From the IMG/VR virus record IMGVR_UViG_2663763282_000007: a stretch of DNA of 8,443 nt; one strand, given 5' to 3'. The translations under genes were made by a program, and so were the position numbers. The notes under the pieces were generated by a model. The model was given only the letters and a program-made list of their open reading frames with translations, searched no databases and was not told where the DNA came from. Within the stretch, counting starts at the first letter, position 1, and the number at the start of each line of letters is the position of its first letter. Positions 2,465 through 4,054 of this stretch are shown here, in pieces. The stretch is from a virus (Duplodnaviria; Heunggongvirae; Uroviricota; Caudoviricetes).

Positions 2465-4054
2465 AACGAACGCCTGTCCTGATTGATGTGAACGGCGTTC
2501 CGCTTCGTGAGAGTCTCAGCTACAACGGAGGCGGCGCAGGATTTGGCGGGCAAATGGCAGAGTGGTTACCACCGGCGCAGAGTGCCGATGCGGCCCTGTT
2601 GCCTGCATTGCGTCTGGGGAATGCCCGGGCAGATGATCTGGTGCGCAATAACGGTATCGCGGCTAATGCGGTGGCCCTGCATAAGGATCATATCGTCGGG
2701 CACATGTTTCTTATCAGCTACCGTCTGAACTGGCGTTGGCTGGGGATGCGGGAGACCACGGCAAAAAGTTTTGTCGGGGAGGTGGAAGCAGCCTGGTCGG
2801 AATACGCAGAAGGAATGTTTGGCGAGATCGACGTGGAAGGGAAACGCACGTTTACGGAATTTATCCGTGAAGGGGTGGGCGTGCATGCCTTTAACGGCGA
2901 AATCTTTGTGCAGCCGGTCTGGGATACGGAAACCACGCAGTTATTCCGTACGCGTTTTAAAGCCGTGAGTCCGAAACGGGTGGACACGCCAGGACACGGT
3001 ATGGGGAACCACTTTCTGCGGGCCGGGGTTGAGGTCGATCGGTATGGGCGGGCGATTGCGTACCATATCTGTGAGGATGATTTTCCGTTCTCTGGTGCCG
3101 GACGCTGGGAGCGGATCCCGCGTGAGCTTCCCACCGGGCGTCCGGCCATGCTGCATATTTTTGAGCCGGTGGAGGACGGGCAGACCCGTGGGGCTAATCA
3201 GTTTTACAGCGTAATGGAGCGGATGAAGATGCTGGACTCCCTGCAGGCCACGCAGCTTCAGTCGGCCATTGTGAAGGCGATGTATGCAGCCACAATCGAA
3301 AGTGAACTTGATACCGAAAAGGCATTTGAATATATCGCGGGGGCACCGCAAGGTCAGCAGGATAATCCGCTTATTAATATTCTGGAGAAGTTCACCCGCT
3401 GGTATGACACGAATAACGTGACGCTGGGCGGTGTTAAAATTCCGCACCTTTTTTCCTGGCGATGCGCTGAACCTGCAGACAGCGCAGGATTCAGACAATG
3501 GATTTTCGGCGCTTGAACAGGCGCTGCTGCGGTATATTGCAGCCGGTCTTGGCGTTTCCTACGAACAGTTGTCCCGTGATTACTCGAAGGTCAGTTACTC
3601 AAGTGCCCGCGCCTCCGCCAATGAGTCGTGGCGCTATTTTATGGGGCGGCGAAAATTTATTGCGGCCCGGCTGGCCACGCAGATGTTTTCCTGCTGGCTG
3701 GAAGAGGCGCTTCTTCGGGGGATTATTCGTCCGCCACGGGCGCGTTTTGATTTTTACCAGGCGCGTTCAGCCTGGTCACGGGCAGAGTGGATTAGCTCCG
3801 GAAGAATGGCCATTGACGGGCTCAAGGAGGTCCAGGAATCGGTGATGCGCATTGAGGCCGGACTGAGCACGTATGAGAAAGAACTGGCACTGATGGGCGA
3901 AGATTATCAGGACATTTTCCGCCAGCAGGTCAGGGAATCCGCAGAGCGCGAAAAAGCCGGACTCTCACGTCCGGTGTGGATAGCCCAGGCGTATCAGCAG
4001 CAGATAGCGGAGAGTCGCAGGCCGGAAGAGGAGACAACATCACGTGAGACGTAA
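2461..4054 (+). pseudogene. B: Portal protein (lambda gpB-like) interrupted by a +1 frameshift at a T6 run (3449-3454); the two fragments are 2461-3516 and about 3449-4054
   Basis: The N-terminal 330 codons (frame of 2461) and the C-terminal ~200 codons (frame of 3431) are each clearly lambda-portal-like (GNARADDLVRNNG, VSPKR, IPRELP.GR, FEPVEDGQTRGAN.FYSVME.MKMLD.LQ.TQLQSAIVKAMYAATIESELDT, then PGDALNLQTAQD.DNG, LLRYIAAGLGVSYEQLSR, ARASANESW.YFMGRRKF, SGRMAIDGLKEVQE, AGLSTYEKE). They are joined only by skipping one T in cacCTTTTTTcc. The upstream frame terminates 20 codons after the shift (stop 3514-3516). Confidence 0.85.

What the first reader, a model, noticed from the sequence alone, without database searches (positions are those of the whole stretch)
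3440..3516. Portal gene split by a +1 frameshift in a T6 homopolymer
Both halves of the portal protein are strongly conserved but lie in different frames. The junction is cacCTTTTTTcc at 3449-3454: removing one T gives ...VKIPHLFPGDALNLQTAQ..., collinear with the lambda portal (…VPHLMPGDSLNLQTAQ… as I recall it). As written, the upstream frame ends 20 codons later, which would give a portal lacking its C-terminal ~200 residues, so the particle could not be assembled. This is either a homopolymer sequencing/assembly error or a real inactivating mutation in a cryptic prophage. A programmed +1 frameshift is unlikely, since none is known for lambda B.
Basis: partly seen in the sequence, partly recalled or inferred. 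Interest (0 to 1): 0.6.

Follow-up and report, generated by a model that had tools for sequence, protein, structure and literature searches.

The report
Dead prophage portal gene, real frameshift
The portal (head-entry) gene of a decayed lambda-like prophage of Shigella flexneri is broken by one extra T that is present across independently sequenced strains, so it is a genuine, ordinary pseudogene and neither a sequencing error nor a programmed frameshift.

Summary
A T6 run at 3449-3454 splits a lambda-family portal gene into a 351-aa ORF (2461-3516) and a 207-aa ORF (3431-4054). Deleting one T gives a 530-aa protein that aligns end to end with lambda gpB.

The window is a phage-21/lambda-like prophage of Shigella flexneri, 100% identical over 1-5424 to strain 2457T. 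The extra T is not an assembly error. The exact truncated protein is on record in 2,587 collection blocks and at least 1,000 contigs, including finished genomes of strains 301, 2457T, 8401 and 2002017. All 19 Shigella-type loci fetched through neighbouring genes also carry T6.

Relatives have T5 or T4 and an intact gene. These are 20 phage records, 59 of 59 sampled E. coli genomes, and the closest E. coli prophage, which differs by the T and two SNPs.

The prophage is dead in other ways. IS600 removed the N-terminus of Nu1. The large terminase has a C-terminal frameshift. Head-gene SNPs within S. flexneri are 14 nonsynonymous to 2 synonymous, against pN/pS of about 0.12 versus E. coli relatives.

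No recoding signals are present. This is a known kind of event, already annotated as split or frameshifted. Interest is low.

The parts
1..70 (+). Right end of IS600 (IS3 family), ending ...CCAGTACACCTCA at position 70. It abuts the truncated Nu1 gene.
   Evidence: The upstream element in 2457T (L010 about 6347-7610) matches 'IS3-like element IS600 family transposase' at over 99% identity. The inverted-repeat end and the junction were read. Homology to E. coli relatives starts at window 70.
71..378 (+). Remnant of the small terminase subunit gene Nu1. Only the C-terminal ~102 codons are left; the N-terminal ~67 codons are lost.
   Evidence: Pfam PF07471 matches only profile positions 85-163 of 164. 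The intact relative is 169 aa, and the alignment begins at KLLIARWELT.
350..2260 (+). Large terminase subunit gene (gpA-like). It is 636 aa here against 642 aa when intact. The last 25 or so codons are out of frame after a -1 change at about 2186.
   Evidence: Pfam GpA_ATPase and GpA_nuclease match.
2183..2215 (.). Perfect 14-bp inverted repeat, GTGCAGTTGCATCC / GGATGCAACTGCAC, with a 5-nt loop. It was created when ancestral TGGCGG was replaced by AGTTG, and this change caused the terminase frameshift.
   Evidence: The ancestral form is in E. coli relatives L001, L002 and L032 and in about half of the S. flexneri loci.
2261..2464 (+). gpW head-tail adaptor gene, intact.
   Evidence: Pfam gpW is listed in the locus tables. 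It is annotated as a head-tail joining protein in relatives.
2461..3516 (+). Upstream portal ORF. Residues 1-331 are authentic portal sequence, followed by 20 out-of-frame codons and a TGA stop.
3449..3454 (+). T6 homopolymer, the site of the one-base insertion (T5 to T6). The codons are CTT TTT TCC in the upstream frame and TTT TTT CCT in the downstream frame.
   Evidence: Relatives read CTT TTT CCT (T5) or CTT TTC CCG (T4).
3455..4054 (+). Downstream portal coding sequence, residues 332-530 of the reconstructed protein. It is in the +1 frame relative to the upstream part and lies within mechanical ORF 3431-4054.
4044..5612 (+). gpC protease / Nu3 scaffold gene (S49 peptidase). It is interrupted in the window by 160 N at 5425-5584.
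5672..7932 (+). Remaining head genes: D (5672-6019), E major capsid (6077-7105), FI (7124-7543) and FII (7555-7932).
   Evidence: The ORF list is.

Best explanation
This is a real, vertically inherited one-base insertion (T5 to T6) in the portal gene of a defective phage-21/lambda-like prophage carried by Shigella flexneri. It most likely arose by strand slippage during DNA replication (inferred). The gene is now a pseudogene. Translation reads 331 authentic residues, then 20 wrong ones, then stops. By alignment to lambda gpB, the break is at about residue 334, inside the clip domain. The product therefore lacks the second stem helix, the second wing segment (368-452) and the crown, and cannot be expected to form a portal ring (inferred). 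The insertion is one of several independent lesions in a prophage whose head genes are no longer under purifying selection.
For: Shown:
1. The T6 run and the two abutting portal halves are in the sequence.
2. The portal gene differs from the intact 1593-nt E. coli FDAARGOS_943 allele only by the extra T and two SNPs.
3. All 20 phage records, including phage 21, match 1594 query bases with 1593 of their own. The best 40 rows and 59 of 59 full-length rows of a spread sample, from 1,856 E. coli genomes, are one base shorter than the window. More distant relatives read CTT TTC CCG, a T4 run.
4. The exact 351-aa truncated product is listed in 2,587 collection blocks and on at least 1,000 contigs. 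Its accessions include S. flexneri 301, 2457T, 8401 and 2002017.
5. Loci fetched through neighbouring genes, not through the portal, are also T6: 10 of 10 through the IS-truncated Nu1 ORF and 9 of 9 Shigella-type loci through gpW. The one locus without the IS600 junction has an intact 530-aa portal.
6. Other lesions are present. IS600 replaces the Nu1 N-terminus. In 2457T it replaces 1,206 bp, including the stretch upstream of Nu1 where cos lies in lambda-like phages. The large terminase has a C-terminal frameshift.
7. Selection is relaxed. pN/pS is 0.11-0.13 against E. coli relatives. Within S. flexneri there are 14 nonsynonymous and 2 synonymous SNPs (Fisher p = 3e-5; consistent with the neutral 76%, p = 0.39).
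8. Lambda gpB domain boundaries come from PMC10721106.
Against: No raw reads were examined. Independence of the assemblies is inferred from different strains, accessions and contig types. The functional consequence (no portal ring, no particles) is inferred from structure and homology, not measured. A very low level of spontaneous +1 slippage on CUU UUU U cannot be excluded from sequence alone. Counts in 'blocks' and 'contigs' may include repeated submissions of the same strains.
Confidence: 0.95

Rival explanations
1. Homopolymer sequencing or assembly error: the true genome has T5 and an intact portal gene.
For: Homopolymer miscounts are common in some technologies. The window differs from an intact allele by a single T.
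Against: The same T6 is in finished genomes of different strains (accessions AAN42336.1, AAP16213.1, ABF04804.1, ADA73063.1). It is on at least 1,000 contigs and in 2,587 blocks. It is in 19 of 19 Shigella-type loci retrieved independently of the portal sequence. A systematic error would have to recur across laboratories and methods, yet never in the sampled E. coli relatives with the same T5 context.
Confidence: 0.02
2. Recoding: a programmed +1 ribosomal frameshift on CUU UUU U, or transcriptional slippage on the U6 run, restores a full-length portal from the split gene.
For: CUU U is the slippery codon used in prfB (established knowledge). A +1 shift at CUU or UUU would give exactly the wild-type HLFPGD sequence (read). 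S. flexneri does use transcriptional slippage for mxiE (PMC1088944). Only 12 portal copies are needed per particle (PMC10721106).
Against: No in-frame stop or rare codon follows the slippery codon; the next codons are UUU, UCC and UGG. No Shine-Dalgarno-like stimulator lies upstream, where the sequence is AAAAUUCCGCAC. There is no Rfam match. The run is not conserved: relatives have T5 or T4 in one frame, so T6 is a recent derived state. Selection against slippage-prone A/T runs becomes evident at about 9 nt in many bacteria, well above 6 (PMC1088944). The packaging genes Nu1 and A are damaged, and head genes evolve neutrally within S. flexneri.
Confidence: 0.02
3. Split but functional portal: the two ORFs are translated separately and assemble into a working portal.
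For: A GTG at 3431 opens the downstream ORF. Some gene callers report a downstream product.
Against: No Shine-Dalgarno-like sequence precedes GTG 3431. Gene callers disagree on the downstream start, giving 207, 161, 137, 123 or 69 aa. The break lies inside the clip domain between the two stem helices of the canonical portal fold. None of the 20 phage records and none of the sampled E. coli relatives carries the extra base that splits the gene. Head genes are under relaxed selection.
Confidence: 0.01

Closest known systems
Bacteriophage lambda portal protein gpB (PDB 8k38) and the phage 21 portal (gene 4)
   Same: The reconstructed 530-aa protein aligns over residues 5-527 with lambda gpB (E 4.4e-213). 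The gene is 93.4-93.5% identical in DNA to the phage 21 portal gene and sits in the same Nu1-A-W-B-C-D-E-FI-FII order.
   Different: The reading frame is broken by one extra T after codon 331. The phage genes are a single 1593-nt ORF.
Frameshifted pseudogenes in decaying (cryptic) prophages of E. coli and Shigella
   Same: It is a homopolymer indel in a structural gene, accompanied by IS insertion or deletion and relaxed selection. The closest E. coli prophage, in CFSAN029787, has its own separate portal frameshift (G5 to G4) and is annotated 'frameshifted'. FDAARGOS_943 has a G6-to-G5 frameshift in FII and an ISEc60 insertion.
   Different: Nothing essential differs. The only particular feature is that this lesion is found in every S. 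flexneri locus sampled.
prfB-type programmed +1 ribosomal frameshifting (CUU UGA C)
   Same: It shares the CUU U slippery motif and requires a +1 shift (motif from established knowledge).
   Different: It lacks the in-frame stop in the A site and the upstream Shine-Dalgarno-like stimulator, and the site is not conserved in relatives.
Transcriptional slippage at long A/T runs (S. flexneri mxiE, IS elements, Thermus dnaX)
   Same: It has a homopolymeric T run at the overlap of two ORFs in the same organism as mxiE (PMC1088944).
   Different: The run is only 6 nt, against the 9A/9T runs analysed in PMC1088944. Homologues have 4 or 5 T in a single frame, so the run length is not conserved.

Membership tests
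Lambda-family phage portal protein (Pfam PF05136, Phage_portal_2) | Significant match to the family profile above the curated cut-off | tested here: met
   The upstream ORF scores 228.7 bits and the downstream ORF 80.4 bits, against a cut-off of 32.9.
Lambda-family phage portal protein (Pfam PF05136, Phage_portal_2) | Full-length collinearity with an experimentally solved member (lambda gpB) | tested here: met
   After removal of one T, residues 5-527 align with gpB residues 7-530, E 4.4e-213.
Lambda-family phage portal protein (Pfam PF05136, Phage_portal_2) | A single uninterrupted ORF encoding the whole protein, as needed for a functional member | tested here: not met
   The frame is broken at 3449-3454 and the profile is split at position 288 between the two ORFs. 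It is a pseudogene of this family.
Defective (cryptic) prophage | Phage gene order with inactivating lesions in essential genes | tested here: met
   The portal is frameshifted, Nu1 is truncated by IS600 and the large terminase has a C-terminal frameshift.
Defective (cryptic) prophage | Loss of purifying selection on structural genes | tested here: met
   There are 14 nonsynonymous and 2 synonymous SNPs within S. flexneri, against pN/pS 0.11-0.13 versus functional-looking relatives.
Defective (cryptic) prophage | Failure to produce infectious particles on induction | not testable with these tools
   This needs an induction experiment.
Programmed +1 ribosomal frameshift site | Slippery codon followed by a slowly decoded A-site codon (stop or rare codon) | tested here: not met
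   The sequence is CUU UUU UCC UGG, with no stop or rare codon at the site.
Programmed +1 ribosomal frameshift site | Conservation of the two-frame arrangement among homologues | tested here: not met
   All 20 phage records and all sampled E. coli relatives lack the extra base, and the relatives read directly (L001, L002, L032) carry T5 or T4.
Transcriptional slippage site | Long homopolymeric A/T run (about 9 nt) whose length is conserved among homologues | tested here: not met
   The run is 6 nt, and homologues have 4 or 5. The threshold is from PMC1088944.

The most novel reading that the evidence does not exclude
Low-level +1 ribosomal slippage on CUU UUU U, or deletion of one U by RNA polymerase on the U6 run, might still yield a trickle of full-length portal. 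Because only 12 copies are needed per capsid, the S. flexneri prophage head module could then remain partly usable. For example, it might complement or recombine with superinfecting lambdoid phages.
Probability: 0.02. Interest if true: 0.35.

Novelty: already known. Interest (0 to 1): 0.08.

Why it matters
It matters little beyond annotation. It confirms that the two ORFs named 'head-tail preconnector gp5' in S. flexneri genomes are the two halves of one portal pseudogene. It also confirms that the lesion is genuine and present in every S. flexneri locus sampled, so the site could serve as a lineage marker. The prophage should not be counted as a potentially inducible phage. It is a clean example of stepwise prophage decay in Shigella, with a homopolymer indel, an IS600 insertion or deletion, a templated palindrome mutation and neutral drift.

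Tried and rejected
1. Assembly error was rejected. T6 is in many independent assemblies, and in loci retrieved through Nu1 and gpW rather than through the portal.
2. A compensating second indel in the portal gene was looked for. None exists; the only other differences from the intact allele are two SNPs.
3. Programmed frameshift or transcriptional slippage was rejected. There are no stimulatory signals, no Rfam family reaches threshold in the window, the run is shorter than the known slippage-prone length, and it is not conserved.
4. Two phage records break within 10 nt of the run. I checked whether this marks a special site. One is a 2x-coverage contig end with the T4 allele and the other is simply a record start. 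I found no evidence of anything beyond assembly breaks.
5. Tandem repeats in the window: none.
6. The S. flexneri 301 and 2457T genome papers could not be read, as they are not held. Literature searches found no paper dealing with this specific lesion.
7. The apparent 522-aa gpC ORF was rejected as a real difference. It is an artefact of a 160-N masked stretch.

Full report
**Observation**

The window reads CAC CTT TTT TCC TGG around 3445-3459, with a T6 run at exactly 3449-3454. ORF 2461-3516 encodes 351 residues. The first 331 end in ...GGVKIPHLF, and the last 20 (SWRCAEPADSAGFRQWIFGA) precede a TGA at 3514-3516. The +1 frame continues from 3455 as PGDALNLQTAQDSDNG... to a stop at 4052-4054.

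Pfam's lambda-family portal model PF05136 matches the upstream ORF at profile positions 2-288 (E 1.5e-67). It matches the downstream ORF at positions 288-354 (E 1.9e-22), so the two pieces meet exactly at the T run. With one T removed, the 530-aa product aligns over residues 5-527 with lambda gpB (PDB 8k38, E 4.4e-213). The junction VKIPHLFPGDALNLQTAQD lies opposite lambda AKVPHLMPGDSLNLQTAQD.

**What the window is**

The gene order is IS end, Nu1 remnant, A, W, B (split), C/Nu3, D, E, FI, FII, start of Z. This is the head module of a lambda/phage-21-like phage. The portal gene is 93.4-93.5% identical in DNA to phage 21 and to several lambda-like E. coli phages.

The window is 100% identical over 1-5424 to Shigella flexneri 2a 2457T (AE014073) and two other S. 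flexneri assemblies. It has one mismatch over 5585-8443. Positions 5425-5584 are 160 N in the window; 2457T has 74 real bases there.

**Real mutation or error?**

The closest intact allele is in a prophage of E. coli FDAARGOS_943. It is 1593 nt and differs from the window's 1594-nt gene only by the extra T and two SNPs. All 20 phage records align 1594 query bases to 1593 of their own.

Among 1,856 E. coli complete genomes that carry the region, the 40 best rows are one base shorter than the window. So are 59 of 59 full-length rows of a sample spread over the whole ranking. More distant relatives read CTT TTC CCG, a T4 run, so the run length is not conserved even among intact genes.

The exact 351-aa truncated product is on record in 2,587 blocks of the assembly collection and on at least 1,000 contigs. 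Its accessions come from S. flexneri 301, 2457T, 8401 and 2002017. Loci retrieved by that protein carry T6 by construction, so I took two samples that do not depend on the portal:
- Through the IS-truncated Nu1 ORF, 10 of 10 loci have T6.
- Through the gpW protein, which E. coli relatives share, all 9 loci with the Shigella IS600|Nu1 junction have T6. The one locus without the junction has an intact 530-aa portal.

An assembly artefact is therefore excluded for practical purposes. T6 is a derived allele found in every S. flexneri locus sampled.

**Consequence (inferred)**

The break corresponds to lambda gpB residue ~334. In the lambda virion structure the domains are wing 24-249 and 368-452, stem 250-279 and 343-367, clip 280-342, and crown 453-511 (PMC10721106). 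The truncated product therefore ends inside the clip domain. It lacks the second stem helix, the second wing segment and the crown. Such a fragment cannot be expected to build a dodecameric channel.

**The prophage is dead in other ways**

- *IS600.* Its right end occupies window 1-70 and abuts codon ~68 of Nu1. Pfam sees only profile positions 85-163 of 164 of Nu1. Compared with the E. coli CFSAN029787 prophage, 2457T lacks 1,206 bp. The missing stretch covers the end of Rz, a DUF4406 gene, the region upstream of Nu1 where cos lies in lambda-like phages, and the first 201 nt of Nu1.
- *Large terminase.* The gene has a -1 change at ~2186 that replaces its last 25 or so residues.
- *Selection.* Against the E. 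coli relatives, head-gene differences are mostly synonymous (pN/pS 0.11-0.13). Among S. flexneri alleles the 16 distinct coding SNPs are 14 nonsynonymous and 2 synonymous. This differs from the between-species pattern (Fisher p = 3e-5) and fits the neutral expectation of 76% nonsynonymous sites (p = 0.39).

**Recoding?**

Restoring the frame needs a +1 ribosomal shift or loss of one U in the mRNA. CUU U is the prfB slippery codon (established knowledge), and a shift there would recreate HLFPGD. However, no stop or rare codon follows it, and no Shine-Dalgarno-like element lies upstream. No Rfam family matches. The two-frame arrangement is absent from all phages and E. coli relatives. Selection against transcriptional slippage at A/T runs becomes evident at about nine bases in many bacteria, and the described uses involve 9A/9T runs (PMC1088944). 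Six is well below that. With the packaging genes also damaged and selection relaxed, I put recoding at about 2%. A functional two-piece portal is even less likely.

**Comparison with what is known, and novelty**

This is a pseudogene member of the lambda portal family in a cryptic prophage. Source databases already list the two halves as separate 'head-tail preconnector gp5' proteins of S. flexneri. In the loci whose gene tables list no portal product (L015, L016, L021), the region still has the same spacing and T6 run.

Homopolymer frameshifts recur in this phage group. E. coli CFSAN029787 has a separate portal frameshift (G5 to G4 at window-equivalent 3717-3721) and is annotated 'frameshifted'. 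FDAARGOS_943 has a G6-to-G5 frameshift in FII. The finding is correct but ordinary.

**Noticed in passing**

The terminase frameshift is a textbook quasipalindrome 'correction'. Ancestral GTGC-TGGCGG-CATCC CGCAA GGATG-CAACT-GCAC became GTGC-AGTTG-CATCC CGCAA GGATG-CAACT-GCAC. The result is a perfect 14-bp inverted repeat made in one multi-base, -1 event. It is polymorphic among S. flexneri strains.

Noticed in passing
window 2183-2215 (change at about 2187-2191): The large terminase C-terminal frameshift looks like a quasipalindrome template-switch mutation. Ancestral TGGCGG (in E. coli relatives and about half of the S. flexneri loci) is replaced by AGTTG, the exact complement of the opposite arm's CAACT. 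This turns an imperfect inverted repeat into a perfect 14-bp one and removes one base. It is polymorphic within S. flexneri: derived in 2457T-like strains and ancestral in 8401-like strains.
   Followed up: yes
window 1-378: The right end of IS600 (1-70) abuts codon ~68 of the small terminase gene Nu1, so its N-terminal part is gone. In 2457T the IS replaces 1,206 bp relative to an E. coli relative, including the stretch upstream of Nu1 where cos is expected. Other S. flexneri strains have a cluster of several IS copies at the same place but the same right junction.
   Followed up: yes
window 5425-5584: There is a run of 160 N inside the gpC/Nu3 gene. 2457T has 74 real bases here, so the masked length does not match. 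The 522-aa ORF 4044-5612 listed mechanically is an artefact; the real gene is 501 aa in the related loci.
   Followed up: partly
window-wide coding SNPs (e.g. 513, 1256, 1355, 1796, 3794, 4428, 5404, 5753, 6384): Among S. flexneri strains the head-gene SNPs are 14 nonsynonymous to 2 synonymous, against pN/pS of about 0.12 versus E. coli relatives. This is a clear signature of relaxed selection after prophage death.
   Followed up: yes
L001 (E. coli CFSAN029787), equivalent to window 3717-3721; L002 (FDAARGOS_943), equivalent to window 7714-7719: The closest E. coli prophages carry their own separate homopolymer frameshifts. G5 to G4 in the portal gene of CFSAN029787 is annotated 'frameshifted'. 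G6 to G5 in FII of FDAARGOS_943 sits next to an ISEc60 insertion.
   Followed up: partly
L023 (OR844788.1, end) and L024 (CP025907.1, start), equivalent to window ~3452 and ~3459: Two unrelated 'phage' records end or begin within 10 nt of the T run. One is a 2x-coverage contig ending in the T4 allele, and the other record simply starts there. It may be coincidence or an assembly-graph break where prophage copies diverge.
   Followed up: partly
window 8384: The window has C where all compared S. flexneri loci (L003, L004, L005, L007, L009, L010, L012) have A. This is a private SNP in the gene downstream of FII, a minor tail protein Z homologue.
   Followed up: no
L025 (CP182555.1) and L008/L017 (CP178302.1): Some S. 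flexneri strains show further decay of the same prophage. L025 has extra small indels upstream of the T run, and in CP178302.1 the large terminase is split into 201-aa and 397-aa ORFs.
   Followed up: no
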